Of a DNA stretch of 64,000 nt, positions 675 to 45,320 are shown in pieces; position 1 is the first letter of the stretch, and each line of letters starts with the position of its first letter. The stretch covers positions 62,001 through 126,000 of the forward strand of contig NOWV01000139.1 in assembly GCA_003344405.1 (NCBI GenBank). Reading direction: 5' to 3'. Origin of the DNA: Trichoplax sp. H2. Taxonomy: Eukaryota. Below the pieces are notes generated by a model, which was not told where the DNA came from, searched no databases, and saw only the letters and a program-made list of their open reading frames with translations. A program made the position numbers and the translations under genes.

Positions 675-832
675 CTATCGTCTATCCAACGTCTCAGCCA
701 GTATATTTACAGGCTGCACCCGGGGGACACTATACTACAGCTATGAATCCTAATTCAGTAGCACCTACATCAATTCAGCAAGTAGCACCTCCACAATATG
801 GAAATTTACCTCAAACCAAAATATCAAATTAA
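675..832 (+). CDS. Terminal exon of a gene that starts left of the window, probably another MS4A-like array member (Q/P/Y-rich C-tail)
   Basis: Acceptor TTAG ends at 674. Phase-1 frame reads IVYPTSQPVYLQAAPGGHYTTAMNPNSVAPTSIQQVAPPQYGNLPQTKISN*, resembling exon 5 of the downstream paralogues (QYQPAQxTYxQ..PGxYT). A possible upstream exon lies at 313-348. Confidence 0.65.
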
Positions 833-2710
833 GGAGAAGTTTAGTAATACCAATATCGCTTCTTCTTGGAAAACCTTTCCTAAAAAATAGCTACGGACGT
901 GGATTAAGCCTTTTAAAATGTAAGAAACGTAGTATTGGTGTTTAAACTAATTTTCAGGGAGTTTAACTTTTACTATTAAACGAATTAGAATGCGGTAGAT
1001 GCAGGCTTTGCTTACAGTTAAGGGTTCATTCTAGCTGTTTTTATATCATGTAAATAAAGTACTGCAGGTTGGAATATTCTGATTTTGTTGACTGTACTGC
1101 ACATGTGGTATTGGGATTAGTTAATAGGACTAGGAAAGAATTTAATTTATGTATTAAATCTGTGAAAGTGTGTGGTGTAGCCCCCCTCCCCAAATATAGC
1201 TTAGATTACGATTCAAGATTGTACGAAAGGAGGCTAAATTGCGAGCAGGGTTGTAAGACTGCATAAGTGTCTAATTGTGGAAGATATTTACAGTACGTAT
1301 TGCAGTAATTGTATTGAGATGCTTATTTTAAGAATTTGAGATAGTAATAGATAGCGTTAATTATGTTCGTACTATGAGATTTGTATTGTGACGCTTTAAT
1401 TAGAAGCGCGAATTATGAATTGATAGCACGATAGTAAATTTATATATGATTTTGAAACCTAATTGCTAAAATATGATTGTGTTTGAAAGAAAATTATTTT
1501 GTAACTAATTGTATGTAAATTGTGAATATTGCTGTGATAATTCATATAGTCCAGAGATAGTCCTATTGAAGCTAGCTAGTTCTTGGTAGTTGTAATACGA
1601 ACCTAATCTATGTAATAAAGTGAAGTTTACAAGAAACTGCATTTTTGGGTATTTTTGAGAAGACAATTTATCATAACGTGATTTTAAGAATTCTATCTAA
1701 CTGTGAAATCCAACTAGTATTACAGGCATCTTCATTAAGATTAGCCACAATTTTAAATAAAAATTTTACCTCAAGATTTAATCTCGCTCATTTATAATAG
1801 ATTGAAAACTAGTACTAACTGCATTTCTGTTCATCTACGATTAGAAAGATATATTGTAACTTTGTATATCTATTTCAAGCAATAGTTTTAATAGCTCTTG
1901 CAACTTTTAGAATAACATATTTGCTCATTTAATAAATATTCTGCATATAAATATTTCTGATCTACAACCCTTTAATGCTCGCAAATATTTTCATATTATA
2001 ATTATCGAAATTCATTTACAAATTAATATAATTCGAAATTATTTGATGATGATACGGTAGTAGAAGTCATCGTCTATCGAAAGATTTAGTCTGATGCTTT
2101 GTTATTATTTTTATTCACCGAAGCATTCATCTATTACACAATCTAGAGCTTTTTACTGACATTGCTAGAGGGAGAGCGTATAAAAGCATAAATCTTCAAT
2201 TAAATAGATGACTCATATACTTATTCTTGCAAACTCATCCACTTAGATGTGCGATTAATTTTCCTTGAATGAGTTCCGTAACGAAGATTATCCATAAAAT
2301 TCAGTATATTCAGCAATCAGTTTAATCATTATTGCAAAATTTAATTTGCACATTTTAATGGATTTAACAGAATTTGTGGCATATAGAGTGAAATAAAACT
2401 TTAATAATTATAATCGCATCACAAGCTATAAGAACAATTTCCATCAGGTGTTAATAGTACTTATAAGTATTCACTAACTTATAACTGGAATACCCATAAA
2501 TATGTGCATGGAATAATTAGTTAGCTCGTAGATAAAAATTGATACTACTCTTACTTGATTCTATGAAAATTTTTCAGTTAAACTATGCTTACTATTGTCT
2601 TCTACTAGCAAAGTCGAACCGTAGAAATGCACTTTCTTCATGCTCCATAAAACTGATCCATAGACGGAAACGTATACTGAAAGAGACTAAGAATCCATTA
2701 AGTATATACT

Positions 2711-3159
2711 TGTCACAAATCAGCTTCGTGACAAGGATAACGTACAACAAATCTCTAAATTACTAAATTACTATAGTCTCCGGGATTCAGTATCCCTTAA
2801 CTATCTCACAAAAATTTAGACGCCTTTGATTCTATGTTAAACTCAACTAGATAATTGAGAACTACTTTATTCAGCTATCTGACGGGCTTATATACCCTTC
2901 TACAGCAGCTAACATTCACGAGTCCTCTTATAAAATACTTAGGTGAGAATATCTACTAACTAATTTTTCACACTTGTACTACAATATGTCCATTCACAGA
3001 ATCATTTCAGTGCACATTACAGTACAGCATTAAATTTACTGTAACACATTTATGATTAGTGTAATTCCTATTGTAAGTGACTAGTTGTAATATATTATCA
3101 CTATATTATATTAACCAAATTTAGATAGCTATTTCTTCACGGTAGTTCGTACCGTGACA
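2711..3159 (-). mobile_element. Solo LTR, family A (449 bp)
   Basis: TGTCAC...GTGACA termini. Flanks ATACT (2706-2710) and GTACT (3160-3164) form a 5-bp TSD with one mismatch. Near-identical inverted copy at 36292-36727. TATATAA and AATAAA read on the minus strand. Confidence 0.9.
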
Positions 3160-3957
3160 GTACTATATTAAAGAAATAAAAACTCTATTAGAAACTAAAT
3201 CCCTATAATTTGAAGGTTTTTTGATTTGTTACTTATCTAAAATAAACTTAACAAACATACGGCGTTTGTAGAGGTAATTGATAGTGATGGTATCGCTAGG
3301 CATATCACCTTATATATATATTATGACGTTTAACTGACAACTATGACGTTTCTTCCTGTACTTAAATTCAACCATATGGAATTATTAAATATAAATTACT
3401 ACGTGTCAGTGGTGAATGAAATATATCAGCGTGACTGGCCAAGTGCGGTATTAAAATGCATACAATATTGCAACCATATTTTTTTGGACTATTTGAGTTC
3501 ATATTAAACTCCAAGATATGAATGGTTTTGAATTTCAACTATCCTGCTAAATTTCAGGTAAGATGCTCAGATAGAGTATTAATACAATAGCATATACGTG
3601 TATCCCATGTACTGTAATTGAGGTTCCTTAACAAACTAATCGAAAGACTTCAACTCCCTGTTCTGCCATAGGCATTCCATAGCAAAGATGATGAGTTATA
3701 AAATAAATATAATTATTTGTAGGAAGTAGCCTTGATAAATTTTATGAAATTAGCATTTAGCCCTTCTACTAGCATATAATCTGATAGAAAGGTATAACTG
3801 CTAGCAATTACAGCATTGCTTGACTAATTTGCCACTAAAATGTAAATTTGGAATAGATAATATTTGGATAATATAATATCACCTAAATGTCCCTTTTCTA
3901 TTCGAATAGTGTTCATATTTGAAAGTATTTCATTGCCATTGAACCAAGTATCGAATA

Positions 3958-6873
3958 ATGTCGGGTTTATCAAGGCAGCAATACGTGCAACAACCGCAAA
4001 TGATGCTGCAACCAGAACAGCAATTACAAGCAGCCCAGCAGCAACCTCAAATTGAATCACAAGTGCAAAGAATTCAACAATATTCAATGGCACAACAAGT
4101 ACAAACAGAGCAACAGCAACCATCATTGGGACAGCAGATGTACATGCAGTCACAATCAATGTCACAATCTTATCCCATACAGCAATCACACATACAAATA
4201 ACTTATCAGAAACAAGCTGCACAACAAAGTTGCTGCTACTCTTGCTGCTGCAGTAGACCTAGAATTTTGTCGAACCAAATGCATTCCGTCAACTTTAAAC
4301 TTGGTATTTGCATGCTGATTGTTGGCGTAACTTCGCTGGTATTTGGCATTATTGGATTTTTTACCACTTCAGTCTACTACGCAAACGGTCCTTATCATTT
4401 CTATCATTTCAATGCATTGGTCTATATAGGTCCAAATATTTGGGCTGCAGTATTTGTAAGTCCTACTTACATAAAATTAGGACTACTAATGTTACATCGG
4501 TATTTCTTATATTCTTGGGCGTCCCATCATTAAAGCTATCCACCACACTTATGTTTTCTAAACTACAAAATGAACTCTTGCATCCAAATTATACTTTATA
4601 GTTCGATGATCACTCACCTACTCATTATTAAGATATTTATTATGGTAATTATTTACTGCCCTTGAGTGAATATCTAATTAAAAATTATATAGAATCATGA
4701 TCAATGATTCTTGCACAAATAGTTACTTCTAGACAAGATTGTTTAATTTAACTAAGTATTATGACCGTCTGACACTAATCATTTAGACAATGAGAAAAAA
4801 AAATTAATAGGTAATTTGTTTCATTAGTAAGATAGCTGAGCTTCTAAGTAGTGCAATATTTAGTCGAACTCGCTTTAATGGCTAATTAAGATAGCGTAAA
4901 GCACATCAATGCTGCTAATCTTTCCATTAGTGAATGTTAAGCGAACAGATGTTTATTTAAATTGCTTAAAACAATTATTAAGATAGCAGATCGTTTATTG
5001 ATGTATTCTATATGGCTCTAATAGTAAGAGCTAAATCGGCATTCTTAACGTATCAATGGTTCTATTTACCGAGTAATTATCAAGACTTTTTAATTGCCTG
5101 GAGCATTAACTGAATCTTTAATATATTTATTAGTAAAAAATGCCGATAAATTGCATAACCTCAATGATGAGAAATGATTAATATTATACTTATTCGGTTT
5201 TTAAAGAATTGCTATTTATGCAATATTAGATAGGTTTTAAGATAAGTAATCTTCTTATTACAGATTTTTAGAGAGACAAAAATAGAGGACTAGCTGAGGT
5301 TGAATAGTTTTCGTTAGTAAAGTTAGTAATTTTATCAAAGTAAGTTTTAGTTAGGCATAAGTAAATGATTAACTTTTGGCGGCGTTGTAGTCACAAAGAA
5401 TGCTAATCATCTTATTAGTACAATTTTCAGCTAGGTACAGTTAAATAATGAATTAATTGGCATTTCTAAAAATTCCTTTTAAAATTAAATTACAATTTTC
5501 CTCAAAACAATAATTAGTCTTTCATCTTATAAATTCTCCTACAAAATATAAGCATGTATAGTATGTGAGTATCGGATTATATTTTATAGTAAGCCATCTT
5601 TTTAATAATAAAATGATTAAACTATTCTCATTTGAAATTATCTCAATAATTCATCAAATGCGTAATGTTTTCGTCTAATTTACCTTGCAGTACATCATCA
5701 ATGGTGCTCTGGCAACAGCAGCAATTCGAAACAAAACCAACATTCACCTGGTTAGGGATATACCATATTTTGTTATCGCATATACCATTTCTATGATTAA
5801 TTTATTAGTTATAAATATTATTAGTGTATAACTTACCATTTTGCTAGATATGTCTGATTTATAATGATGGCTATTATAATATTGTTAAAAACAGAAAAGA
5901 TAAAACCAGTTGTTACTTACTGTAGTTTACTAGATTCATATTAAATCATCATTGCTAAGTGTTTATATACTTGAACGAGACCGATTTCGTATACGGTCAC
6001 GTTCATACTCGAGGTAACCAACAAATTTATCTTAGACATCATTAATAGCAGCCAAATAAGGATGTTAGAAGTGTTTTAAACATTTTTTCTGACCTAAGTC
6101 AAACCTTAACTTATATTTACTGATAATTATCTATCCGCTTTAGATGAACAGCTTTTATGCCTTTACGATCATGAGCTTTATCTTTTCAATGGTTCATCTT
6201 GGCTTATGTATCGGTACAATATTTATTTATGGCACTAGATCGTCCTTGTGGTATAATACTGTGTCCATTATATTATCTTTCTTTGCACTTTCCATCGCCT
6301 TAACTTTCACAATAATTCTGAGCCGATATATCTATTGCAAGAAAAGCAACTCTGTAAGCAAATAACGAAAATGGCAAATTATGCATTATAAATGCTCCAT
6401 TTTATGGATATCTTAAAGTCTACTTCAGAGGCTTAAATTATTTAGTATTTATATGTGTATTGCAAGTGTACTGCTTGTAAATTCTAGGTTAAATAGCAAT
6501 TTCAGGACCACAATAGAATTATAACATGCACTGAGGCATAACCTTCTTTTAAATTTTGACTATTATTCAATTAATAGAATATACCTGCTGTCCAGTTTTA
6601 TAATCAGCCGGAAGTTGCTCTACCACCAAGGTTGATGCAAGCAGGTAGATAGTTTCTCTTTGAATTACAAGTTTTATCTGTATAGATTAGCAGATATCTT
6701 TAACTTTATTAATTTCTATTTACTCAAATTTATTAGGAACGGCCTATCCTTCTCCAGTCTATAGGAAAGACGAACAAATAACGCCGACTGCATACTATCC
6801 AGGTAATGTAGAAGCCATGTCTAAACCAATTCCACAAGAGCTGCCTCAATACTCTAGTGTTGTAAATCGGTAA
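3958..6873 (+). CDS. CD20/MS4A-like four-TM protein, paralogue 1 (~323 aa, long Gln-rich N-terminus)
   Basis: Exons 3958-4455, 5691-5750, 6144-6353, 6578-6644, 6737-6873, all GT-AG and in frame. Four hydrophobic segments. TM2 GPNIWAAVF|YIINGALA resembles the MS4A GYPxWGxxxYIISGxL motif. Confidence 0.85.
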
Positions 6874-9506
6874 CATAACTGAATGGCATAAAAGAAATAA
6901 ATGATATCATATTTTATCACAAGATTTAAATCATCAACGGTCTTAAGGCTGAATACATTTTTGAGTAACTACCATAGATTACTGGTTAAGGATCTTAATT
7001 TTATGCAACTGAAAATCAAGTAGATCATATAAGCGAATTTCATTTTTTCTTCAATGCTATATACAGTAAATATTTTCTAATTTGAATAATTTGTGTAGCG
7101 ATATATCAAGTATTACTTCTCGGCTATTTAGTTCTAAAATTAAGCAGGGTAACTTATAATTTCTACAAGATCAATACGCAATCTTGTTGATTTAAAATTG
7201 TTTTTGCTTGATGCATTTGATCAAATCGAGGATGATACTACACTGCTTTGTATTTTATTTGATAGTATTAATTTTGGAATGGTTTTAGCTCATACAATAT
7301 AAACGCTCTTTTAGAATACTTTGATTAATAAAAAATACCATTTTTAAGCTCGAATTGTATAATCTTCTATAACTATATTATGTCATGATTGAGTCTGACC
7401 TAAACTGGAAAGTAATCATAATCTGCCGACATAGCTGAGACTAAACTGGGATATGTATGACAGTTCTGTTTTACATGGGAACAAATTTATAAAAAGAAGT
7501 TCGTAGGATGTTCAATTTGGTACAACTATGGTTAGGAAGCTTACCGCTAGTGAACACGGCATCTGCTAAATCCTACTTGAATTTCTCTACCACCAGAGTA
7601 AAAAATAACCAGGAATATCTAAAGCGAAATTTCCTTTATAAGGGGAAAAAGTTCATAATAGGAATTCCGCAGAACTTTCAAAGCGACACAACTTATAGTA
7701 AGAAAGCTGTACACGAACCTTACATTTGCGTAATTTTGCTGAAATTTTAAATTTTGTCATAGACAGTCATGATACTGATAGCTGATTCTTACATAAGCAA
7801 ATTTACCGAGATACAGTAAATATTGGTACGTACTAAGTTAGCTTCAAATCTCAGCAGTACACCGGTGTCTATTTGTATGTTTACTTTTACGGTTTGATAT
7901 TGATTACGAACTGAATTACTTTGAAACAACATAAAACTATATCTAAAACTATGACGGAACTAATTAACTGTTTGTATGTACATTCAAATCTGTAATTACT
8001 ATTTTACAATTATGGAAATGCTTATAGTTTTGGAAATTGTTGATGACCAACTACAGTCCGTCGTTAAAGTTAGTATTAGCTATTTCTTTAATAATTACTA
8101 CTTAAGCTTAGAGCATTACTTATAATTTTCAAAGATTAGACGTTAACAATTTAAACATCATGACTGACAACTAAGAGAACCTAAGTTTAACCAAGAAGGC
8201 AACACTGATAAATAAATAATACGAAAGGAGATTTTCGTTAGTAATGTAGATACAGTTTCTAAATTATAAGTTCACTAAAATTTTAACTCATTCTGGTTCA
8301 CTAAAGTAAAATACAAATTTAAGAGGTACTATTTTTGGATTCGATTGTATAATATGTAGGTAGGCTGGTTTAAGAGCCTATTCTGCAGACATAACTTGAA
8401 AATGATTCATAAATAACGTACAAAAAGCGAAAAAATTTATTAGTGATTGTATAAGGAACACTTTTGTACAATTATAAGTAACTATGCTGATATTTTGATT
8501 AATTTTGTAAATTTGTTTTAAACATAGTCATTTGATAGCGTACTTATGAATAATTTATAATAGAATGTAGAGGTAGAATAGAAGCAAATCAAACTATTGG
8601 TTGAAGTTTATTCTAAAAGATATTCTTATATTCTCTTTTCAGTTCTATATATCTAGGCAAAAATAGTGTTCTTCTACTGCTATGTCAAACGCAAAATTTA
8701 ATATGGGTAATGAAATTTTAAAAATATATTACCTACTTTAGTAATGTTTGCTATATTTATAATACTGCTCTACATTAAAAAATTCTCATATTGCCATACA
8801 TTTTCAGTTGATTCCATAAAACTATTTTACTGAATACAATGAAATTCGTTAAATCTTAAGAATTTAGTTGCCGAGCTACCTACTAGATAAGAATACTTTT
8901 GGATAGGTGAAACCTAATTTGCACCACGATACTCAAGCATATAAGTAGTCCAAAATACAATTCACAAAGTAAGTTAATATTTACTTGCTAGATTTCAATG
9001 AAATCTTAATACTTTAGCTCTGTATTGATGGAAAATGAAGCAGAAAAAAGCTAAACTAGGAGAATTATATAATTTTATATCTTTTAACCTACTTTTACGT
9101 ATCAATCATCTTTCAATGCAAGGCTAAAATATTTTTAAAATTTATCCTATCATGCATCAATATTAGTATTTTACACGTTAATTACCTTTAGAGTAGCTCA
9201 TAAATTGTTTTTTAATTACGCAACTTGTGCTTATATTCTTTCTTTAGTAATACAAAATGCTATCATATTACACAAACTTCACTAGCTAAAGTTATGGCAT
9301 TGATCTGGGCTATACTATTTCATATGGTAAATTTTTACATATCCATATTGAGACTTACAAAAAAGACTATACGTTATTAAATATTGTATACTCACCTAAT
9401 TTTACCTTGCAATTATAATCACTTATTTTTATAATACTGTACATAGCAATTTCTCTAACTGATTGACTTGCTGAAATCATATAAATTTTTTAGATTAGTT
9501 ACTAAC

Positions 9507-10318
9507 CACTGCTATAACTTTATAATAATCTTCTCTTCTTAAAAGTATGACGAAAGCTATACTGAATGTAAAGGCAGATAATGCTATGTTCAATGATATA
9601 AGTTTGTACCAATAGATAGCTCGAGTATATCAGTAAAGCATGAAGCCAGAACTGAGACCAATATGTACACCAGAGAGAATTAAGCTAAGCATGGATGAAA
9701 TTGAAAAGTAATTCATCTATTGAAAATAGCAAGAAAAAATGTTTAAGAATCGGTAAGGAAGGACAACGTAAAAGACTGTTACATTTTATATACTGTAGTG
9801 GTATCGACATCACTCGAACGTACTATTCATACACTATTTTGCTGCTTACAAGACTTAGTTGCAAAGATGCCCCAAATTGCATACTGCAATGAAATATAAA
9901 TGAAGACAAATATTGTAATTGATCATAGGCTTCGTATAATAGCTTAAGGAAAATCCACGCAGGAATAAGTAAAAAACATGCTTAATAAATGGAAACGGAA
10001 ATATATTTTGGGTATGGAATAAGATATAATTGAAAAAAATTCCTTTCAGGAAAATAGTTTTAACATCCAACGAGTAGTGAAAATTCCAATGATCCCAAAT
10101 CCTACACTCGCAACGCCAGTCAGACATAATACGATACCAAGTCTTAACTGAGCGGCATGAAGATGCAAGGGCAAAGATTTCTCGCATGGTATACAACAAT
10201 TTTCATTAATAGCTTCGTCGTGATTAATTATTTGAGGCGTCTGACCTGGTAACATTTTAGTAAGAGTTTTCGTTTCTTGTGCATCTTGGACATATTTCAC
10301 TAGGACAGGAGTAGCCAT
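9507..10318 (-). pseudogene. MS4A-like pseudogene (paralogue 2)
   Basis: Exon 1 from ATG 10318 (MATPVLVKY...CCIP...LGIVLCLTG) stops at 10046 and lacks the DIWxGxF end. Micro-exon 9883-9824 contains TGA at 9827-9829. The 210-nt exon 9716-9507 has an in-frame TGA at 9630-9632 where paralogues encode Gly. Confidence 0.85.
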
Positions 10319-11275: not shown

Positions 11276-11720
11276 TCGTGATTAATTATTTGAGGCGTCT
11301 GACCTGGTAACATTTTAGTAAGAGTTTTCGTTTCTTGTGCATCTTGGACATATTTCACTAGGACAGGAGTAGCCATCCTGCTTTGGAATACTTTAATTTT
11401 ATTGTTAGCTCTACAAGGGTAAATCAAATATAGGTTCCTCATTATATCTTGGATATTAGAACAATAAAATTCACACTAAACTTTAGCAGCCTTAATTGAA
11501 GTATTGAATTTTTTAGCACCTTTTATCTTACTCAGTGATCGATTTTTATTTGCTGAAATAATGAATACTAACCGATTGCGCCAAATACTTGACTATGAAT
11601 TGATCAAAATAATCCGATCTGCATTGAATAAATAAATTTTGAGATAAAGGTTTTTGCTTTTTCCATACTGACTTTCGATAGACGAATTCTTCATTGTATT
11701 TAAACTTTTGATCACGTTGA
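11276..11720. repeat. 445-bp duplicate of 10218-11255 lacking the solo LTR (probable alternative haplotype)
   Basis: Colinear with 10218-10394 plus 10988-11255, with only ~7 substitutions seen. Both copies abut the N gap. Confidence 0.9.
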
Positions 11721-14622: not shown

Positions 14623-16529
14623 TTAGGGATTACCACCCATAGTTTTTGTAGGTTCTGACTGATTGGTGGAAATCTGATTCGGGACTGCTGTGTACGGCCC
14701 AGGTTGAATAGCTTGCGTATATGTTGCCTGAGCGGGTTGGTATTGTATAGGCACTTTAATTATAAATAAGCATACAAAATCGAAATAGTTTATCAAGTAT
14801 CATGCTTGAAATGATAATAAAAAATAGTATAAAGAGTAATTTGATAGTTTAATGTAGCTAATCCTATAGTGATATTACATTGCAAGCAGTTATTTGATGA
14901 TATTATTATAATTTTATCCGGAGAAAGAAAATTCATAATAATAAATCTAGAATTATTTTTATCAATTAAAAAGCTATTTCATATCACTATACGATATGGG
15001 CGGACCATATTAAGCCATTTCCAATTGTCAAGTAAATCAGGCAGATTCTAAATTATAAATGCGTTTTAGTTAATCCTGAAATTGCTATTACCTTGCTGAT
15101 TTGGATATTGTTGCATTGTTATAACGTGAGTTGCCGATTGATAGTGTGCAGAATGAGCACCCTGAATCAAAAATCATGGTATACCCGTATGTTAATGTGA
15201 TATAGATGAGTTACCAATTGAATTGCTAATGAGATTATTTGTCTTTTCAAATACTACAGATGGTGATTTAATAGAAAGTGAAGCTTTTATCACAGAATAG
15301 AACTATTAACGGTAGCTTCATTATTTGAATTCGTATGCGAAGTGGAATAATAACAAAGTAAAAAACAATTCTACTCTGCAACGTCCAGTTATCTTATAAT
15401 CAGCTTCTGAATATTGGAATGAAGACACTAGATATGGTTACTAACCCCAGGATAAGATTTGCAATAGAGTTCTCTACTAAGTATTACAAGGAAAGTTAAA
15501 GTGGTAGCAGAGCCAGTTACTGCTAAGGCCAAAGATACAATGTTGAACCAGATAGAAGGAAGAGTACTACGACCAATCAAATAACCAAAACTGATGCCAA
15601 CGTGACCAATGGAGGATACGAAACCCAAAATGGAGAATGCATACAAACTATTCATCTATTGTAATTAATATAAGTGAAATGGCAATCTTAAGCAAGCAGC
15701 GATGTCTTCCTTCTTTTTAAGTAATAAATTGGATCTTATTTATATATATACTGTCTGTAAGGTTGTATAAATATTTTGTGATCATTTAGAATTTACCAGA
15801 TGAATGCTGGCTGCTTTTTGTTTCTTGTGATTTGCAATGGCAAAGATACCTGCCAACAGATACTGTTGCAAAAGTAATTCAAAATATTAGCTGAATACAA
15901 TTCTGATTTTGAAGTTCATGCAAAACTGTAACTTATATAAAGGTAGGTTTAACAGATATCCTGAATAAATACATCGTTGTTAACAGTATCGTAGAACGGA
16001 GATAAGAAAGACTTGGAATACAGTGTTCATTTGAAAAAGAACATATTAATATGACTATGAAAGCGATAATAGTAGAAGCAGCTGGGAAGACAGCGGTCTT
16101 CTGGCGCTTATAGGTACGAACTAGTCATCGGTGAAATTTAAAACTACATGAAGATTAGATCAAGGAAATATTACTCAGGAAAGTTTGCTTATCAATACTT
16201 ACAAACAATCCAGCCCAAATACCGCAAGCGAAAAAGGTAGTTGGATTGTAGATTAAATATGTATAATTATAGCCATTGCCACTATAAGTATGGACAGTAT
16301 AGGTGGTAAAAAATCCAACAATTCCGAGTATTAAACTCACAAGACCAGTCACAAGTAATGTAACACCAAGCCCCAGTTGTGCTGGTCGAAGTTCCTCTGA
16401 CAATGCCTTCTCACGCGGTATACAGCAAGATGTACTAACTCTCTGAGTTTCGTATGTTATTTGAGGTTGTTGTACTACTGTACATGGTACTGGTTGTTGA
16501 TTGTATTGCGGTCGGATTACAGCTGCCAT
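14623..16529 (-). CDS. CD20/MS4A-like four-TM protein, paralogue 3 (~267 aa)
   Basis: Exons 16529-16203, 15862-15797, 15655-15446, 15161-15092, 14753-14623. All GT-AG with an open frame. TM2 reads ACGIWAGLF|YLLAGIFA. Confidence 0.88.
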
Positions 16530-19900: not shown

Positions 19901-21098
19901 ACTGTCAACAACCAAACAATCTAACAAAAAGAAGGACGTTTTCACTCATAACAAACAGTTCGACTTAGATGGTCTTTAAAATCCAACAAGTTTTTCAAAA
20001 GAATTTTCTTTTACTTTCTACTCTAAATTTTCTGATTACACTATCATTTATAGACTTTGCAGAGCAGTCAGTGGTATTTAAAACTAAACTTTTATTAACC
20101 AATCGCTCTTCAGATTCACTTTAGAAAACTACTTTGCACCACTTAAGAAAACAAAAATCATTCAAAGTTCAGACGCGATTTACCGTATGATTCCCTTACA
20201 AAACACTATAAAACCATCAAACTAACTATAAAATAATCATTAATACATTATAAAAATCTAAAAATTAGCCTTTAAACATCAAGATTTAGCCCTAAAAATA
20301 GCATTCTAGCTACTTTACAATCAACACAACCTCTGCCATTTGCCATCTTATTTTTTATTTTCTAAGCTAAACTTTCCTAATGTAACTTGCATGATATTGT
20401 ACGATAACTGTACGATTATAACCCAAATTGCAGTACTTTACCGTCATGTTATAAATCTCCTTTCTCTATGGATAGGGTTTTCTTACTAAGTCAAATTCAT
20501 TTACAAGCCCAATAGACTATCAAACGCCCCTTCTTAAAGTTAGGAGATTGCTCCTAGGTTATTTCTATAGTAATCTATACAACACTTTGTAAAATAATGA
20601 AGAAAACATGGCGATATCACGATTTGGCATGGTAAAATTTAAAGATACTACCACTTTCAAGGTATTTTCTATAGTAAGTTAAAATATTTACATCCTGAAA
20701 GCTATAAAGGACTCTGCTCTTTGTCCTTTACGACATAAATTTCTGTAAAATTTATTAAAGACTTACTAATTCGTCTTATCATAAAACAGTAAAAATAATT
20801 AAATAGTTTAAACCAATGAAATTGAAGTAGCTAAGGATTACATCCAAGCAAAAATATGTTCTTCTAGAAGTAAAGTTATAATTGTTCAGGAATATATTTA
20901 ACGATAGCACTATTACTACTAAAGGATAAGACCGTATGCGGCATTCAGTCGTTATAAATTAGTTGGAATTCTTTTATTACAAATTATACTAGAATGACAT
21001 TATTGACTATCATTTTATCGTATTGAGCGTTATTAGCCATAGATTTTGTAGGCTATCATTGAGTCAAGGAACACTAATTAGGAGCTGCAGTATATGGC

Positions 21099-21660
21099 TG
21101 TGATATATACCGATCACGAAATTCCAAATTTTAGAAAAATAAGAGCTTTATGGAATCTTATACAAAGATTTACAACACGCAACTCTACTCTAGCCGAATA
21201 CTACTACTATAGACTTCTATAACGAACTAACAGAATAATCTAAAGTTGCATGCTTTTATACTTTTCGTAGCATTCGCAGCTACAATCCGTACGCCAACCT
21301 TTTACCTTATTTTACGCGTAGTTAAATTATTCTCAGTAACACTATTCTACTGTGGACCATCATTAATCCGATTTGGATATGACTGCAGTATTTACGTAGG
21401 CATTATTCACACCAGTCAAAGTACAATGAATTAACCATATCCTAATATATGATTTACAGTTCCATTTTTACCTATAACCTTATGAATAACTCAATACCTT
21501 ACTGTATATAGTCGTCTGTACTCTAGCATAGAGTCTATAACACTACTGTCTATAGTTATGGCTACCAAATATATCTTAGAATAAATATAGAAGTTACCTT
21601 ACCGTAGATTATACTAAACATGGCTAACAGTCTACAATCACTATACTAAGTTACATTACA
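21099..21660 (-). mobile_element. Solo LTR, family C (562 bp), inserted in the last coding exon of paralogue 4
   Basis: TGT...ACA termini. Flanks ATGGC (21094-21098) and ATGGT (21661-21665). Inverted homologue at 38335-38885. The exon-5 reading (QPGP|YTAAPN) resumes on the far side. Confidence 0.92.
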
Positions 21661-25573: not shown

Positions 25574-27653
25574 TTAGGCATCACCACTCGCAGTTTTTAC
25601 TGGTTCTGGCTGAATAGTAGCAGTTTGAGTTTGAGTAGGGGCTACAGTATACCCCCCAACAGGCGCAACTTGCGTGTACGTTGGTTGAGCGGGTTGGTAT
25701 TGCATTATGACTTGATCATTAATATGAAAACAAGAAAATTAGTATTTGCTACACTAATTATTCTATTTAAATTATCTGTGCATAATCTTACGCAAACTAC
25801 CATACTTAAACTATTTAACTTAACCTTAAGAGATATCATAAACACACGAAAAATATCACACTTAATGCTACTGAAATGAGATAATTCATAAATGCATGGA
25901 TGGAAGAGGTAAAATCTTTCCATAAATAGAAAAGGCAAACTCTTTCCCTAATAGCATAGTATCCTCTGACAACACTTGAATATTACGATTGATTTGATTT
26001 TCTTTACAAAATGATCATAGTATCAATTAGAAGATAGTCAGGAATAGCCTACAGATCACAATTTGTGATCATATTTAACATGAAATTATTATTACCTGGC
26101 TGGTTAGGATATTGTTGGTTAGGGTATTGTTGGTTAGGATATTGCAGCACAGTTAGAACTTGACTTTTACCTTGAAATTGGACTGTGTAAGCACCCTAAA
26201 ATTGAGGCCATGATATCAATATATCTATTTATGATTACTCAACAAATTCATATACATATTTTAATCTATAAATCAGTAATAAATGCGAGCCAAAAAAGGC
26301 TATTTAATAAGTGAAATTAAAGCATGAACATAGAAAGCTTGATATGTACAGTATCATATGCAGTCTTATAAAGGATTAATTTTTTAACGAAGAGCAAGAA
26401 CTGAAGAAATTTATTATTTTGAGATAAAATTTTCATATTTTATAAGATACTGAAATTGTTTCACTAACCGGTGGGGTAGGTTTACAATAAATTTCTTTAC
26501 TTAAAAGTATGATGAAAGTCAAACTGCAAGAAAAGCCAATTAATGCAAAAATCATTGAAACAATGTTGAACCATTCCGTGTAACGAGCGCCGTAGTTAAA
26601 CATAAAGCCAAGGCTTAAGCCAAAGTGAGGTAATGATAAAATAAAGCTCATTATCGAGAAAGCATAGAAGGTGTTCATCTATTAAAAATTACAACAGCCA
26701 GATAAAATGAAGTAATTAGTTGTAACGATCATTCCAGTCGTTAAGGTAATTATAAGTAGGTAATTAGAATTTAATTGTTACAGTTTGGAATGTTTTACGC
26801 ACATTGTATTTGATAATCAGAATTACCTGATGAACGTCGTTTTGTTTCTTGTAAGTAACAGCGGCTAAGATTCCACATATGAAATACTGCAGCAAAAAGA
26901 TTTCGAAACTTGAGTTAAAATTTATCTTATTTCGATGTTATGATACATTTTCAGAATGTGACAACAATACTAAGGCATATATTAGATAAATGGTCATTGT
27001 ATTATAGTATTCAGGGTATTCATTTATGACCGTAGACAGTTAAATTAGTTAAACTACAGTAGTTAAATTATACAAAACCTGGAAAACAGAATGATAGTGA
27101 AATAGTGTATCAGAGAATTGAAAACCTTGTATTACATCTACTGCAGTAACAATGATAGTAATTGATTATACTGGTATTTATATTTGTCAAGACTCCCTTA
27201 CGTTATGGAAGTACTAGATAGGAAACGAAAGCTCGTCAATATTAGAAATAGAAAGAATTGCTCATTACTGTCAAACATATTTTCAGTAACAACTTTATCA
27301 ATGCTTACAAATAATCCTCCCCAAATATCTCCGGCGTACCAACTGGTTGGATTATAATAGGTATAAAAAGTATGAGAATGGGGCGAGTAGCCTGTATAAT
27401 TGGCCTTGAAAATTCCAACGACACCGAATATCACACTGGCTAGGCCAGACAGGCTCAAGAAGATGCCAAGTCCTAATTGGGTGGAGCGAAATTTAATCGG
27501 TAAAAATTTACCATGTGGTCTGCACACACCGGTACCAGAAGGAGCCATATTTTGTTTGTGTATTATTTGTGGCTGCTGGACAGGAATCATTTGTGCTGGC
27601 TGTTGAATTACTAGCGGTTGTTGGACGTATTGTGGTTGAGCAGGAGTAGCCAT
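25574..27653 (-). CDS. CD20/MS4A-like four-TM protein, paralogue 5 (~283 aa)
   Basis: Exons 27653-27309, 26886-26827, 26678-26469, 26195-26096, 25710-25574. Open frame. TM2 reads YAGDIWGGLF|YFICGILA. Confidence 0.88.
26100..26144 (-). repeat. Coding 15-bp tandem repeat x3 (QYPNQ)
   Basis: Three copies of TTGGTTAGG(A/G)TATTG in exon 4 of paralogue 5. Paralogue 3 has one copy. Confidence 0.9.
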
Positions 27654-33029: not shown

Positions 33030-34476
33030 TTAATATCGAGCAGGATCACCTTGGAACTTGATTGCATATGGGGTCTATAACACATTAGTAAAAATTAAGA
33101 ATAGAAACTTTATTTATAACCTATTCTATGAATACTTCAGTAATGTAATTCGTATAGTCTTTATGGCAACGACATCTGGCTGTTTTCTACTACCGTGCAT
33201 TTTATTGCTCTTGCTATAACTACAAGTTATTGTACTAAGCATTTAGGAATAGAGCTGCAATGACTATTGGTCAACATTATGTTAATTTGGCATAAAGTAC
33301 AATCTAATAGCAGCATGTCTTAAATTATTAAATTCGAATTATGTGACTAACTTGTGGCCCAGAAATGCAGAAAATATTTTTTAGTAAAAATCTTATAAAA
33401 ACGGCGGAAATAAGGAATCCAATCCCTGCCAAAACTAAGGAGGCGATATTGAACCACATACTCAGTGCGACTCCATATACAAACATGAAACCAAAGCTCA
33501 CACCAATATGTAAAACTGACATGGATAGGCTTATAATCGTGAATGCATAATAGCTATTCAGCTGTCCATTTGGAAAAGAAGGGATGCCACATATGTCAGT
33601 TTTATATTCATTTTAATTTAAATTTTTCGACAATTTATCTTATATTAATCTGTAGTAACAATCTAATTTAATTCAGTTTTATTACTCCTAATTTACCAAA
33701 TGAAAATTTTTTCGCGCATTCTGATGTTCTACTATAGCAAAGATACCACAAACAATATACTTTAATAAGAAATCAAAAAATGAACACAATCCACGTTAGT
33801 ATTGCCTGTAGAGGGTATATAAATCAAGGAAAAATGGCAGGACCATGCTTATAAAACGCATTAATTAATTAAACTCAGTGCATCTCTTTCCATAAGTTAA
33901 AATCATAAAATTTGACTGTAATCCTGAAGATAATATTGTTTACTTTATTGCTGCTTCTAGTTAAGTTATTCATATATAACAATATTAAAAATGCTATCGT
34001 CCTTTACCTACTCATATTAATAACTCTAAAAATCTGTAATTTTTATTCTTTATCAACCCAACTTGGGCGTTATTATACACTAAATTATTAAAAAATGAAT
34101 TTATTATACCAAAATAAAAATAAATCATTTAAGAAATACATGATACAGGCATTCTTTACGGCTAAAAATTACTATAAAGTTATTGACTTACAAAAAACCC
34201 TGCCCAAATGTCTGCGCCTACCCATGTTGTGGGATTATGGTAAACATAGCCTTGCAAATGAGAGTCAGGTACAGTTGTGGTAAAAATTCCAACGATGCCT
34301 AAGACCATGCTAGCTAGACCACATATCATTAAAACGATTGCAAGTCCAAATTGTGCTGGACGGAAATTAGAAGGTAATGATTTCCCATGTGGAATACAAT
34401 ATCCTGGATTCTCAGCGGGCAGATAAGAAATAACTTGAGGCATTTGGCTTTGCTTCGATACTACTGGAAGAGACAT
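33030..34476 (-). CDS. CD20/MS4A-like four-TM protein, paralogue 6 (~200 aa; short C-tail after an apparent exon-4 frameshift)
   Basis: Exons 34476-34192, 33759-33697, 33561-33352, then 33074 onward (TPYAIKFQGDPARY*). All four TMs are intact. The old reading (..NQSPNHL|GT) survives in another frame to 33010. Confidence 0.75.
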
Positions 34477-38310: not shown

Positions 38311-38334
38311 CCGACTATAGGAGCCAAGAGATAC

Positions 38335-39987: not shown

Positions 39988-40775
39988 CTAATAGTAAAAT
40001 CTGTACGTGGTCATTATAGCGAAATGGATGCCAAATTGCACTGCTGATAATACCAGGCTGATTATACTTAAAGCGTAGAAACGATTGACCTAAAATTGGA
40101 AAAGTTTAAAAGTGCGTACAAGTGTTATAGCAGATTTTATATTGATCATAATAAATATAACTTTTCGGGCAGGTCTAGAGTCATTATAGGCCCAAGTATG
40201 CAACTAAAGATATAATAAAAATCAAACTATCCATACCATTAGCTGGTTAATTTCATTATACCGTAGTATAACAGCAAAGATCCCACCAAAGATATACTGA
40301 GGAAGAATGCAAGAATATCAGTAGATCACCTAGCATTTCATCAATTAGAATAGAATAAATTCTGTATTTGTAATGAAAAACGATACTATAGATATCTAGG
40401 ATTTGAAAGTACCACAATTTTATAATGATAAATTACATGGTACTGAAAAAATAGCCATATGGTTAACTGAAACTTGTACTACTACGTTAAATAGGCCTTA
40501 TCAAGAAAATCCATAGATTAATATCTACTTACAAACAAGGTAATCCATAAATCGATCGATATTAATGTGGCAGGGGTTCTGTTAAATAAAACAATAGAGA
40601 AAACAAGACATCCAAGCAGGCAAAAGACAGACAAAATTATCATCAAAATGGTAATCTTTGATCTTGGACAAATTCGCTTAGGTATAGATCGTTTGGGCAT
40701 GCAAGATGGATAAGCAAATCGGCGAAGTTTCTTTAACTGCTTATCACTAAGTTCTTGGTCAAGTTCCGTAGGCAT
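39988..40775 (-). pseudogene. Divergent MS4A-like paralogue 8, truncated after TM3 (probable pseudogene)
   Basis: Exons 40775-40533 (..ISIDLWITLF), 40296-40237 (YIFGGIFA..) and 40089 onward (VNRFYALSIIS..RFYY*). TAG at 39988-39990 precedes TM4. A TM4-like stretch (FYFFVTVSKGSFC) lies further on in the same frame after a second stop. Confidence 0.65.
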
Positions 40776-43099: not shown

Positions 43100-45320
43100 C
43101 TAAACAAGCTGGGGTGGATTAGCAGACACTGGTTGAGGATACATCATAAATTGTCCATTTTGAGATGGTTGTGCATAAATACTTGCAGCAGGTGGATCAA
43201 TATTTTCTGTCGGAAAAAATTAAAATTTTTGATTAGAGCGATTGCTCATACTTATTTTCAGAGGATCACTGATTATATAGTGTCAATTTTAAAATAAGTA
43301 AGAAACTTAATTCTGTTAGAACATAATATCATTCGAAAAGCAGAATCTTAGTAATTTACGTTCACGACTTTGAACTTTCTAACAGTGATTATATTTGATA
43401 TTGCAGTAATTAGCACTATAATATAGAATAGTTCTTAAGTATTGCAAATGAAATTGTCGTAGTAATTAGACGAAAGCGATTTTATGTAGACTTTATTCAG
43501 GCATTCATTACGGTCGAGTACCAATAGTAGTGGTGAAGGAACTTGATAGACCGTAGCTAGGTTAAATTAAGATAAGTTTTCTTGAACGATTGACCAAAGT
43601 TTTTAAACTACAAACAACTGGATTAGATACTTACCAGGTTATCATTACATTGCAAAGTGATTCTAATGACTTTTACAACCTCATCAACTGCAAAACTTTT
43701 CTTGCTTTAAGCAGGAATTGAATAAATTTTAAAGTCATAGATAAAATGCTCTATTACAGTAATAATTATAATAGCTGCAGAGTACATTCAACTTGAATTT
43801 TCAGCCTTCAAAATATTTAAGAAATGCGCATACAATCTGTAAAGATATCGTTGCACAGGTACAGTATATCGCTACCTTAGTAGTGCAATATTCATAAAAC
43901 TAGGAAATATTTTACCTGTTTGAATAGGATACGGTTGGAATATTACCGTTTGATTTTGTATGTTCCCCTAAACCATTAGCAATTACAACAGTTTGTTACA
44001 TATTTTATATGGTACATTATGAAAGTCTAATAAAATTCACAAGAACTGTCGAATTTGGTGATCGTTAACGTTTATTAAAGTCAATTTTATAATAGTGGCA
44101 TAGATAATGAGTTGCAGCTAGCTTTATGATTTATAATACTAATGCGATATTAAATTATGGCATACGCAAATGGCAACTGAAGGACATTGATTATCTTGCG
44201 GTAATACTACCAGGATGCGTGTAAACTGCATAATATTTATCTTGATAGAAGGTGATGAGCACATGATACAAAATTGACTATAATATTTTTTACTTACACT
44301 TTCAGCAGGTCGGCAGTAGATTGTACGTGAAAGAATAATCATCATGGCTAAGGCTAAGGAAAAAACAACAACTCCTATAAACATCGAGGCGATGTTATGC
44401 CAATACAAATAATAAGCATTGTGGGCAAACATAGATGCCAATGAAATTCCAAATTGGAGTATGGAGAAAAATAAGCTGATTATTACAAAGGCATAGTAAG
44501 AGTTCATCTGTAATAAATTCAAACGTTATTAGTTATTCAAGGCCCATATAGTATTCTATTAATAAGGCACTTTTAAAAGCTAATTATGGCGAGGGTATCT
44601 ATATTAAAAGTCGCATTACTTAAAAGTATGTAACGCCATATCAGACTTGAATATATCAATCAATTGCATATATCTTACCAAATGGTGATTGTCTTTATGA
44701 AAATGAATAGTAGCTGCAAAAATTCCACAAATGCAATACTAAAGAAATTAAATATTCTTCATGAATATCATTTAATGTTAGGCCAGTTGTAAATGGACCT
44801 GTTATTTTTGTCTGCTGATATCTTGACGGTTCACCGATTACAGTACGATATTCATTGGACTACACGGTCGGTATACGAATTATTATTTATGAAATATGAA
44901 TCAACACGGAAATACTGCCAAGATTTAAAAGTATCAAATTATAGAATGCTAAAATTTATTCATCAAGAATCAATAATATCAAAAATTTACTATTCATAAG
45001 TATATTTTAGTTTCTATAATCTAAATAGAATCAAGATAATTAGCAACAGAATTCATATTTAACCGAAAATTAAGTCATCTTACCGAAATCCCAACCCATA
45101 TATCTAATGCTATGACAACAGAAGGGTTGTAGCAATACCCATAGAAGCCGTATCCAATGCCACCTAAGATGATACTGACAAAGCCAATAACTGAAATGGT
45201 GATGCCGATTCCTAAAGATGTAGGACGCAAGTGCAATGGCAATAGGAAGTTGTTGTAATATCTTTGATAACTAAATGATTCTGGCTGGTACGGATGGTGC
45301 CCACTAATTTCAGCAGACAT
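43100..45320 (-). CDS. CD20/MS4A-like four-TM protein, paralogue 9 (~221 aa)
   Basis: Exons 45320-45084, 44738-44679, 44507-44298, 43967-43916, 43206-43100. Open frame. TM2 reads IALDIWVGIS|YCICGIFA. Confidence 0.85.

What the first reader, a model, noticed from the sequence alone, without database searches (positions are those of the whole stretch)
675..45320. Birth-and-death tandem array of MS4A/CD20-like four-TM genes: candidate non-GPCR receptor repertoire in an invertebrate
Seen: 8 clear paralogues (up to 10 with the edge exon and the relic) in 45 kb, sharing one exon architecture and ranging from intact to tail-truncated to pseudogenised, with strongly diverged proteins. Known: mammalian MS4A genes form a tandem cluster, and some act as chemoreceptors in necklace olfactory neurons and as immune-receptor subunits. 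Inference: an independently expanded, fast-turnover cluster in an apparently early-branching animal could be an undescribed chemosensory or microbe/self-recognition family.
Basis: partly seen in the sequence, partly recalled or inferred. Interest (0 to 1): 0.8.

Follow-up and report, generated by a model that had tools for sequence, protein, structure and literature searches.

The report
Placozoan tandem array of CD20-like genes
This stretch of the Trichoplax sp. H2 genome holds eight neighbouring copies of a four-helix membrane protein gene distantly related to the vertebrate CD20/MS4A family, and published single-cell tables place different copies in different cell types rather than in one sensory cell class.

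Summary
Window 675-45320 carries eight paralogues with one plan of five coding exons: four intact (c1, c3, c5, c8), two tail-truncated (c4, c6) and two disrupted (c2, c7). It also holds the last exon of a ninth gene and two relics.

The window is Trichoplax sp. H2. The genes belong to a run of locus tags, TrispH2_008318 to 008330.

CD20-like/MS4A-superfamily homology is supported but remote:
- Pfam CD20 is the top hit for 13 of 14 family members. It passes Pfam's cut-off for four placozoan relatives, not for c4.
- The eight best matches of a family profile among solved structures are all FceRI-beta or CD20.
- The best fold matches are FceRI-beta and sarcospan.

RNA contigs confirm the splice sites of c4 and c5.

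Turnover is slow. Trichoplax adhaerens orthologues are 96-99.7% identical, and Hoilungia has a matching run of gene numbers.

Published single-cell tables put the paralogues in different programmes (lipophil, gland, epithelial, fibre, peptidergic). That resembles the lineage-specific use of vertebrate MS4A genes more than a chemoreceptor repertoire, and no test here supports a sensory role.

A C-terminal PPxY-type motif is enriched in the family.

Verdict: a new member of a known kind, of moderate interest.

The parts
675..832 (+). c0: last coding exon (exon E, tail with PPQY) of TrispH2_008322, whose other exons lie left of the window
   Evidence: P0009 residues 152-203 are 100% identical to 674-829; named; the ORF is listed
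3958..6873 (+). c1, intact, 323 aa. Exons A 3958-4455, B 5691-5750, C 6144-6353, D 6578-6644, E 6737-6873. Taken to be TrispH2_008323 from gene order.
   Evidence: LPQY lies 10 residues from the C-terminus
9498..10318 (-). c2, disrupted. Exon A ends in a stop just after TM1 with no donor; exon B 9883-9833; exon C 9716-9498 has an in-frame TGA.
   Evidence: the annotated 90-aa product P0019 matches exon A
11276..11452 (-). Duplicate of the 5' part of c2 exon A (98.9% identical to 10218-10394), beside the 20-N gap at 11256-11275 and inside a 465-bp tandem unit. May be an assembly artefact.
14623..16529 (-). c3, intact, 267 aa. Exons A 16529-16203, B 15862-15797, C 15655-15446, D 15161-15092, E 14753-14623.
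   Evidence: No matching annotated protein was found among the hits.
21656..23680 (-). c4 = TrispH2_008326, tail-truncated, 249 aa in my model. Exons A 23680-23336, B 22929-22870, C 22729-22520, D 22221-22152, E 21720-21656.
   Evidence: P0001 is 100% identical over exons A-D. The RNA joints B-C, C-D and D-E lie at these ends in 3 RNA runs.
21098..21660 (.). 563-bp dispersed repeat (TGTAATG...ATCACAG, 4-bp target duplication CCAT) inserted in exon E of c4.
   Evidence: 89.7% identical to 38335-38886, which is flanked by ATAC/ATAC. Loose ends of many contigs fall at 21098-21100 and 21660-21663, and depth in X1 is very high.
21029..21097 (-). Relic of the distal part of c4 exon E, now holding stops.
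   Evidence: tblastn with c3 exon E, E 3e-4; the junction reads ...QPG|PYTAAPN* once the repeat is set aside
25574..27653 (-). c5 = TrispH2_008327, intact, 283 aa. Exons A 27653-27309, B 26886-26827, C 26678-26469, D 26195-26096, E 25710-25574. A 5'-UTR intron spans 27670-28216.
   Evidence: My model equals P0034 over 283 of 283 residues. All four coding joints were seen in 3 RNA runs, and the UTR joint in 2 of them.
33030..34476 (-). c6, taken to be TrispH2_008328 from gene order, tail-truncated, about 200 aa. Exons A 34476-34192, B 33759-33697, C 33561-33352, D from 33074, which is out of the ancestral frame and stops at 33030.
   Evidence: RNA contigs of X5 and X13 join 34193 to 33074 at depth about 7.
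39988..40775 (-). c7 = TrispH2_008329, truncated. Exons A 40775-40533, B 40296-40237, C from 40089 with a stop after 33 codons; no TM4.
   Evidence: P0030 (134 aa) matches
43100..45320 (-). c8, taken to be TrispH2_008330 from gene order, intact, 221 aa. Exons A 45320-45084, B 44738-44679, C 44507-44298, D 43967-43916, E 43206-43100.

Best explanation
The region is the right-hand two thirds of an old tandem array of genes in Trichoplax sp. H2. The array appears to run from TrispH2_008318 to 008330.

Shown or well supported: the genes encode CD20-like (MS4A-superfamily) tetraspan membrane proteins. Both ends are cytoplasmic. The four TM helices form a bundle. The first outer loop is variable (11-31 residues) and often carries N-glycosylation sequons. 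The second outer loop is a fixed 7 residues. The cytoplasmic tails are rich in Q, P and Y.

From published tables: different paralogues fall in different cell-type programmes.

Inferred, about one chance in three: the proteins work as vertebrate FceRI-beta and CD20 do. That is, as small oligomeric membrane adaptors or scaffolds that tune other surface receptors or membrane domains in a given cell type. Surface level would be controlled through the C-terminal PPxY-type motif, which would recruit WW-domain (Nedd4-type) ubiquitin ligases.

The array grew by tandem duplication before the Trichoplax/Hoilungia split. It has since lost or damaged members slowly, through a stop codon, deletions, a frameshift and one repeat insertion.
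For: Identity:
- Exon A of c4 is 100% identical to TrispH2_008326.
- phmmer of that protein against 1.84 billion representatives gives 33 hits at E<=1e-3. Every named one looked up is Trichoplax, apart from one ascidian.

Family:
- Pfam CD20 is matched by 13 of 14 members at E<=1, against 1 of 14 for MARVEL at E 0.97.
- 5 of 18 scanned relatives pass the cut-off.
- c4 hits the ascidian P0028 at E 8.8e-7 library-wide, and P0028 scores 43.6 bits on Pfam CD20.
- The eight best PDB hits of the family profile are all FceRI-beta or CD20, best E 5.1e-5.
- The AF2 model has four helices with TM pLDDT 82-95.
- Foldseek's top three hits are FceRI-beta (E 1.4e-3, TM 0.63). VIA-align gives sarcospan Z 16.1 and FceRI-beta Z 16.0.
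- In the ESM Atlas, 28 of 30 named hits carry PF04103.

Topology:
- K+R make up 16-17% of the inner segments, against 2% of ECL1 and 7% of ECL2.
- There are N-glycosylation sequons in ECL1 of c3, c4 and c5.

Transcription: GT-AG joints lie exactly at the modelled exon ends of c4 and c5 in 3 RNA runs of one study.

Cell-type use (Najle et al. 2023, PMC10580291, Tables S3 and S5). Tags for c1 and c8 are assigned from gene order.
- c1 and its T. adhaerens orthologue: lipophil (0.898 and 0.923).
- c4: pan-epithelial (0.596).
- c5 orthologue: gland (0.558).
- c8: unknown_1 in H2 (0.935), lipophil in T. adhaerens (0.917).
- 008318 and 008320: pan-peptidergic.
- 008319: peptidergic kappa (0.914).
- 008321: fibre.

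Age: orthologue identity is 96-99.7%, paralogue end branches are 0.5-2.3, and Hoilungia gene numbers run in matching order.

PY motif: [LP]PxY occurs in 9 of 15 C-tails, against 1.4 +/- 1.1 in shuffles; 0 of 5000 shuffles reach 9.
Against: - The homology is remote. c4 scores 20.4 bits on Pfam CD20, under the 27.9 cut-off, and the exon pieces alone gave nothing.
- No Foldseek match reached E<=1e-3. Helical bundles commonly reach Z about 14 by chance, and tetraspanins score 14-15 here.
- The matches to Pfam CD20 cover only profile positions 2-98 of 156, TM1 to about TM3.
- The adaptor and PY-motif mechanism is inference only: no partner, oligomer state or ligase binding was tested.
- Four window copies (c3, c4, c5, c8) lack the PY motif.
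- Module memberships are modest for c4 and c5 (0.55-0.60). The H2 module of c0 and c5 is not in the paper's annotation sheet. c8 and c0 fall in differently named modules in the two species.
- c2, c6 and TrispH2_008325 (probably c3, by gene order) are absent from the module table.
- My tail sequences are related, so the shuffle test overstates independence.
Confidence: 0.6

Rival explanations
1. One reading: the array is a repertoire of non-GPCR chemoreceptors, or of microbe/self-recognition receptors, diversifying in its outer loops as mammalian necklace-neuron MS4A proteins and ascidian MS4A genes are proposed to do.
For: - The genes are clustered and diverged. ECL1 is the least conserved part of the membrane core (17% pairwise identity, length 11-31, against 43-54% in the TM helices).
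- 4 of the 6 differences between c5 and its T. adhaerens orthologue lie in residues 78-96, at the end of TM1 and in ECL1.
- Array members left of the window, and a second-cluster member, sit in peptidergic modules beside GPCRs.
- Ascidian MS4A genes are reported as clustered, expressed in palp sensory cells and positively selected in their outer loops (passages of bioRxiv 10.1101/2022.08.15.492342).
Against: - Window copies map to lipophil, gland, epithelial and 'unknown_1' programmes rather than to one sensory class.
- The exposed surface is small: ECL2 is fixed at 7 residues.
- The cytoplasmic tails are as variable as ECL1 (15-21%), so loop divergence may simply reflect weak constraint.
- The repertoire is small, and the tested orthologue pairs are nearly unchanged between T. 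adhaerens and H2.
- No selection test was possible and no ligand data exist.
Confidence: 0.15
2. The proteins are themselves cation channels or channel regulators of the plasma membrane or endolysosomes. This has been proposed for CD20 and TMEM176 (recalled, not taken from any call).
For: They form a four-helix membrane bundle of the CD20 type. c1 and the T. adhaerens orthologue of c8 fall in the lipophil module beside V-ATPase subunits, which would fit an endolysosomal or secretory-granule membrane role.
Against: No pore-lining polar or charged residues stand out among the nearly invariant columns (G68, W111, G113, G120, Y199, C200). No oligomer prediction could be run. A co-expression module is no evidence of location.
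Confidence: 0.1
3. The likeness to CD20/MS4A is convergent: a placozoan four-TM family whose hydrophobic helices happen to score against PF04103. Zuccolo et al. 2010 argued this for invertebrate candidates.
For: - The scores are borderline: 28.2-28.3 against a cut-off of 27.9, with c4 and the c5 orthologue at about 20.
- The fold is generic. Many unrelated bundles score Z 10-15, and no Foldseek hit reaches E<=1e-3.
- PMC2826416 concluded that invertebrates lack MS4A genes (passages).
Against: - CD20 is the top family for 13 of 14 members, while other four-TM families barely register.
- The eight best of 177,635 PDB sequences are all MS4A proteins, aligned motif for motif across TM1 and TM2.
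- There is a transitive link through an ascidian protein that scores 43.6 bits.
- ESM Atlas neighbours are CD20-like clusters of cnidarians, echinoderms and molluscs.
Confidence: 0.1

Closest known systems
Vertebrate MS4A cluster (CD20/MS4A1, FceRI-beta/MS4A2 and relatives)
   Same: - Four TM helices with both ends cytoplasmic.
- Shared TM1 and TM2 motifs: LG.t..l.G...l..G, and W.G..f.lsG.l.I.s.
- Best sequence and fold matches.
- Tandem gene cluster.
- Different paralogues used by different cell types. The vertebrate pattern is recalled, not taken from a call.
   Different: - Only remote similarity, about 15% identity in the structural alignments.
- The long variable loop is ECL1, not ECL2, which is fixed at 7 residues.
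- Q/P/Y-rich tails with a PPxY-type motif; I made no dedicated scan of the tails for an ITAM.
- No orthology to any vertebrate subfamily was tested.
Ascidian MS4A expansions (29 genes in Ciona; bioRxiv 10.1101/2022.08.15.492342, passages read)
   Same: An invertebrate, lineage-specific, clustered expansion. The one named non-placozoan hit of c4 is an ascidian protein (P0028, E 8.8e-7), which also ends in a PPAY motif.
   Different: The ascidian genes are reported as enriched in palp sensory cells and as positively selected. The placozoan copies are spread over many cell programmes, and selection could not be tested.
Sarcospan (dystrophin-glycoprotein complex subunit)
   Same: Best VIA-align match: Z 16.1, rmsd 2.3 A over 135 residues. 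It is a small four-TM scaffold subunit of a larger receptor complex.
   Different: The family profile found no sequence match to sarcospan at E<=10. Whether sarcospan belongs to Pfam CD20 is recalled, not tested here.

Membership tests
CD20-like / MS4A superfamily (Pfam PF04103) | Significant profile similarity to the family model | tested here: met
   Met at family level: 13 of 14 members have CD20 as their best Pfam family at E<=1. Of the 18 relatives scanned, 5 pass the 27.9-bit cut-off: P0003 28.2, P0004 28.3, P0006 28.3, P0015 28.2 and the ascidian P0028 43.6. The family profile hits FceRI-beta at E 5.1e-5. Caveat: the window's own c4 scores 20.4 bits, below the cut-off, and single exons score nothing.
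CD20-like / MS4A superfamily (Pfam PF04103) | Four TM helices with N- and C-termini in the cytoplasm | tested here: met
   AF2 helices at 51-89, 103-128, 133-161 and 167-199. K+R make up 16-17% of the inner segments against 2-7% of the outer loops. Sequons occur in ECL1.
CD20-like / MS4A superfamily (Pfam PF04103) | Fold like solved MS4A structures | tested here: inconclusive
   FceRI-beta is rank 1-3 in Foldseek (E 1.4e-3, TM 0.63), but nothing reaches E<=1e-3. VIA Z is 16.0 for FceRI-beta and 10.6-10.9 for CD20, against a helical-bundle background of about 14.
CD20-like / MS4A superfamily (Pfam PF04103) | Orthology to a named vertebrate branch (MS4A proper, TMEM176 or sarcospan) | not tested
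   No vertebrate sequences could be brought into the tree. Only an ascidian and one unnamed row served as outgroups.
MARVEL domain (the UniRef name of the T. adhaerens orthologue of TrispH2_008318) | Match to Pfam MARVEL PF01284 | tested here: not met
   1 of 14 members, at E 0.97. The UniRef name was seen.
Tetraspanin | Large second extracellular loop with conserved cysteines | tested here: not met
   ECL2 is 7 residues in all nine array members compared. No Pfam Tetraspanin hit appeared. The structural Z of 14-15 to uroplakin and PRPH2 covers the TM bundle only.
Chemoreceptor repertoire (functional class) | Paralogues expressed together in a dedicated sensory cell class | tested here: not met
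   Published module tables place window copies in lipophil, gland, pan-epithelial and unknown_1 programmes, and neighbours in fibre and peptidergic programmes. These are bulk module memberships taken from supplements, not in situ data.
Chemoreceptor repertoire (functional class) | Positive selection in outer loops; ligand-evoked responses | not testable with these tools
   The paralogues are too diverged (about 70% nucleotide identity in exon C only). No DNA of the other placozoan species was to hand.

The most novel reading that the evidence does not exclude
Placozoans, which have no neurons or immune organs, already used an MS4A-like gene array as vertebrate blood cells do: one tetraspan adaptor per cell type. 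In that case the 'cell-type-coded MS4A cluster' would predate bilaterians. The peptidergic-cell members of the array may in addition act as non-GPCR sensors of food or microbial cues, with PPxY-driven ubiquitin-dependent turnover setting their surface level.
Probability: 0.15. Interest if true: 0.65.

Novelty: new member of a known kind. Interest (0 to 1): 0.35.

Why it matters
A 2010 survey (PMC2826416, passages read) held that MS4A genes arose in jawed vertebrates. Later work placed them in ascidians.

A transcribed, spliced CD20-like array that orthogroup tables place in four placozoan species pushes a clustered expansion of the superfamily to a non-bilaterian animal. It also offers a very simple system, with a handful of cell types, for asking what these adaptors did originally.

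The gain is incremental:
- Pfam already labels some of these genes CD20 in public tables.
- CD20-like clusters of cnidarians, echinoderms and molluscs are in public collections.
- No function was shown here.

Tried and rejected
- Pfam on 13 single-exon translations gave no family at a meaningful E-value. Spliced proteins could not be typed, so database proteins were used instead.
- The whole genome is not held.
- phmmer of c4 alone against PDB gave only a caveolin at E 0.011, which I take as chance.
- The single-sequence AF2 model was poor (pLDDT 59). It was replaced by the model built on the alignment.
- The word-indexed profile search returned only 3 proteins I already had.
- An inverted-repeat scan found no terminal inverted repeats for the 563-bp element. 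Its ends and 4-bp target duplications were read directly instead.
- RNA contigs gave no cover over c3 (14550-16550) in X5, X13 and X15. Contig absence proves nothing.
- A homodimer prediction (complex prediction, residues 45-205, two copies) never ran because the queue was full. Oligomer state is therefore untested.
- The synonymous/non-synonymous count rests on the 13 differences that one search listed in c4 and c5 (about 5 synonymous and 7-8 not). It is a partial list, with 196 further differences not shown, so I draw nothing from it.
- Literature searches found nothing on these genes: MS4A + Trichoplax gave 1 irrelevant paper; CD20-like + placozoa gave 0; TRIADDRAFT, TriadG and UniProt ids gave 0; a wider cnidarian/sponge search gave nothing relevant among the 12 papers listed. 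PMC11452194 mentions neither CD20 nor MS4A.
- Earlier-findings look-up: nothing on this genome.
Full report
**What is in the sequence**

The window is AT-rich eukaryotic DNA (GC 0.28-0.36) with one 20-N gap at 11256-11275. Stop-to-stop ORFs and tblastn of exon translations against the window show eight related genes: one on the + strand (c1) and seven on the - strand (c2-c8).

Exon A holds the N-terminal tail, TM1, the first outer loop and the start of TM2. It matches between copies at E 5.5e-37 to 4.7e-8. Exon C holds TM3 and TM4 and matches at E 1.6e-26 to 4.5e-5. A 17-22-codon exon B, bounded by AG and GT in phase 0, lies between A and C in 8 of 8 copies.

Two further exons follow: D (Q/Y-rich, phase 0 in, phase 1 out) and E (a P/Q/Y-rich tail). 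I located them in c1, c3, c4, c5 and c8, and exon D alone in c6. My five-exon model of c5 equals the database protein P0034 over all 283 residues.

**State of the copies**

- c1, c3, c5 and c8 are intact, at 323, 267, 283 and 221 aa.
- c4 has exon E interrupted by a 563-bp dispersed repeat at 21098-21660, flanked by a 4-bp duplication. A second copy lies at 38335-38886 (89.7% identical) with its own 4-bp duplication. The distal part of c4's exon survives as a relic at 21097-21029.
- c6 has exon D shifted out of the ancestral frame and stops after 14 codons.
- c2 has lost the end of exon A with its donor and carries a TGA in exon C.
- c7 stops 33 codons into exon C and has no TM4 in any frame.
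- The ORF at the left edge (about 675-832) is the last exon of TrispH2_008322.
- A 98.9% identical copy of the 5' part of c2 sits at 11276-11452, beside the N gap and inside a 465-bp tandem unit. It may be an assembly artefact.

**Where it comes from**

Exon A of c4 is 100% identical to the hypothetical protein TrispH2_008326 of Trichoplax sp. H2 (P0001).

Look-ups gave these locus tags: c0 = 008322, c4 = 008326, c5 = 008327 and c7 = 008329. Further family members 008318 and 008320 lie on the same 199,047-bp contig. From gene order I take c1, c2, c6 and c8 to be 008323, 008324, 008328 and 008330.

phmmer of P0001 against 1.84 billion representative proteins found only 33 hits at E<=1e-3. Of the 30 I looked up, those with names are from T. 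adhaerens or Trichoplax sp. H2, apart from one ascidian protein (Phallusia mammillata, P0028). The rest are unnamed fragments.

**Which family**

- Single exons gave no Pfam match.
- The full-length c4 protein has Pfam CD20 (PF04103) as its best hit, but below the curated cut-off: 20.4 against 27.9 bits, E 5.6e-4.
- Among 18 relatives scanned, 12 list CD20 at E<=0.1 and 5 pass the cut-off. Four of these are placozoan (28.2-28.3 bits) and one is the ascidian (43.6 bits).
- Scanning the 14 members of alignment A1, 13 match CD20 at E<=1, against 4 for BCLP and 1 for MARVEL at E 0.97.
- A profile of A1 searched against all PDB sequences gives FceRI-beta (four sequences, best E 5.1e-5) and CD20 (four sequences, E 0.04-0.07) as its eight best hits. 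The TM1 and TM2 motifs align.
- The AF2 model built on A1 has four helices with pLDDT 82-95 in the membrane core and disordered tails (mean pLDDT 68).
- Foldseek ranks FceRI-beta first to third (E 1.4e-3, TM 0.63), though nothing reaches E<=1e-3.
- The Foldseek-free search ranks sarcospan (Z 16.1) and FceRI-beta (Z 16.0) first. Tetraspanins score Z 14-15 and CD20 about 10.6-10.9, on a helical-bundle background of about 14.
- In the ESM Atlas, 28 of 30 named neighbours of P0004 carry PF04103. They include clusters commonest in Cnidaria, Echinodermata and Mollusca.

I conclude that these are remote but genuine members of the CD20-like superfamily. Orthology to MS4A proper, TMEM176 or sarcospan was not tested.

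**Protein anatomy**

The positive-inside rule and the ECL1 sequons support a topology with both ends inside the cell.

Among nine array members, the TM helices are 43-54% identical. ECL1 is 17% identical and 11-31 residues long. ECL2 is 25% identical and always 7 residues. The tails are 15-21% identical.

A [LP]PxY motif occurs in 9 of 15 C-tails of 25 residues or more, against 1.4 +/- 1.1 after shuffling; 0 of 5000 shuffles reach 9. In 6 of those 9 tails the motif lies 6-24 residues from the end, and a seventh has one of its three motifs there. The ascidian protein has it too.

In the window, c1 (LPQY) and the c0 edge exon (PPQY) have the motif. c3, c4, c5 and c8 lack it, and the truncated c6 has no tail long enough to carry it.

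**Transcription**

Contigs of three RNA runs from one study (X5, X13, X15) carry GT-AG joints exactly at my exon ends.
- c4: the B-C, C-D and D-E joints.
- c5: the A-B, B-C, C-D and D-E joints, plus a 5'-UTR intron (27669 to 28217) seen in two of the runs.
- c6: a low-depth contig in X5 and X13 joins exon A to exon D at 33074.

Run X1 behaves like DNA, with even depth of about 90 and no splice joints. It is extremely deep over 19.2-21.9 kb, which fits the repeat.

**Age and turnover**

In a 25-row tree all placozoan rows form a starred clade (95/97) apart from the ascidian and one unnamed row. T. adhaerens/H2 pairs have branches of 0-0.04, while paralogue end branches are 0.5-2.3. Seven T. adhaerens/H2 orthologue pairs are 96-99.7% identical. 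Paralogue DNA aligns only in exon C, at about 70%.

The orthogroup table of Najle et al. 2023 (PMC10580291, supplementary file 4; searched, cut when stored) gives the following:
- c8, c5+c6, c0 and c7, and also 008318-008321, share orthogroups with Hoilungia hongkongensis genes numbered g06588-g06600 and with genes of a fourth species.
- c1, c2 and c4 have Trichoplax-only orthogroups.
- Copy numbers differ. OG_3226, for example, has 2 genes in each Trichoplax species and 4 in each of the other two.

The array is therefore old, with slow birth and death. It is not a fast-turnover cluster.

**Cell-type use**

I read sheet (a) of Table S3 of the same paper in full and searched sheet (b). It assigns the genes as follows.

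| Gene | H2 module (membership) | T. adhaerens orthologue module |
|---|---|---|
| c1 | lipophil (0.898) | lipophil (61179, 0.923) |
| c4 | pan-epithelial (0.596) | not searched for (Tadh_wf_g10219) |
| c5 | lavenderblush3 (0.545), absent from the annotation sheet | gland (61181, 0.558) |
| c0 | lavenderblush3 (0.732), absent from the annotation sheet | pan-peptidergic (61177, 0.739; labelled CD20) |
| c7 | unknown_1 (0.744) | no T. adhaerens gene in its orthogroup |
| c8 | unknown_1 (0.935) | lipophil (61182, 0.917) |
| 008318 | pan-peptidergic (0.792) | pan-peptidergic (61174, 0.744) |
| 008320 | pan-peptidergic (0.662) | pan-peptidergic (64327, 0.615) |
| 008319 | peptidergic kappa (0.914) | not searched for (Tadh_wf_g10210) |
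| 008321 | fibre (0.545; labelled CD20) | not searched for (61176) |

c2, c6 and 008325 are not in the module table. The main text of that paper mentions neither CD20 nor MS4A.

Expression is thus cell-type-specific but spread over most cell classes. This argues against housekeeping use, and equally against a repertoire housed in one sensory cell class.

**Explanation**

The best-supported reading is an old tandem array of CD20-like tetraspan proteins, each used by a particular cell type. Their action as adaptor or scaffold subunits, as for FceRI-beta and CD20, with PPxY-dependent control of surface level, is inference.

The rivals are a chemoreceptor or recognition repertoire, channel activity, and convergence on the fold. 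The evidence for and against each is set out in its own section.

**What is known**

- Zuccolo et al. 2010 (PMC2826416, passages) concluded that invertebrates lack MS4A genes. They noted weak candidates in lancelet, sea anemone, sea squirt and sea urchin.
- A 2022 preprint (10.1101/2022.08.15.492342, passages) reports 29 clustered MS4A genes in Ciona. Some are expressed in palp sensory cells, and sites in the outer loops are positively selected in Botryllus.
- PMC5620054 lists the CD20-like family among metazoan-specific membrane clusters (passages).
- I found no paper that describes the placozoan array.

**Verdict**

The receptor interpretation is not supported. This is a new member of a known kind, with interest 0.35.

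Noticed in passing
window 21098-21660, 38335-38886, 13736-14049: A 563-bp dispersed element (ends TGTAATG...ATCACAG) with 4-bp target duplications (CCAT, ATAC). It is present at very high depth in the DNA-like run X1. One copy truncates the tail exon of c4. It may be a solo LTR or a short non-autonomous element.
   Followed up: partly
window 48644-62829, - strand: A second, unrelated tandem family with three copies (about 48644-50436, 55375-57223 and 61037-62829) at 68-81% nucleotide identity. One exon gives a weak Pfam EamA-like transporter hit (E 1.8e-4, below the cut-off).
   Followed up: partly
window 10983-11845 and 11256-11275: A 465-bp unit repeated 1.9 times around a 20-N gap, carrying a 98.9% identical copy of the 5' part of c2. 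It could be a recent duplication or an assembly artefact.
   Followed up: no
family tails; window 6737-6873 (c1) and 675-832 (c0): A C-terminal [LP]PxY motif is found in 9 of 15 family C-tails, against 1.4 expected by shuffling. The ascidian relative has it too. This suggests WW-domain or Nedd4-type regulation.
   Followed up: partly
window 34193 to 33074 (c6): Low-depth RNA contigs in two runs join exon A directly to exon D, skipping exons B and C (TM2 end, TM3 and TM4). The phases keep this join in frame. It may be a minor or non-productive isoform.
   Followed up: no
window 25712 to 26101 (c5): A second joint form of the D-E intron, with three other letters between the two sides, is seen in all three RNA runs at depths similar to the canonical joint. 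It may be an allele or an alternative splice.
   Followed up: no
window 2711-3162 ~ 36289-36727; 10397-10982 ~ 13122-13700; 53232-53968: Further dispersed repeats (91% and 88% identical) and a short tandem repeat block at about 53.2-54.0 kb.
   Followed up: no
window 4185-4230 (c1) and equivalent sites upstream of TM1: Cysteine pairs or clusters about 12 residues before TM1 (CC in c3 and c4; SCCYSCCCS in c1), and a nearly invariant Y-C just after TM4. These are candidate palmitoylation sites.
   Followed up: no
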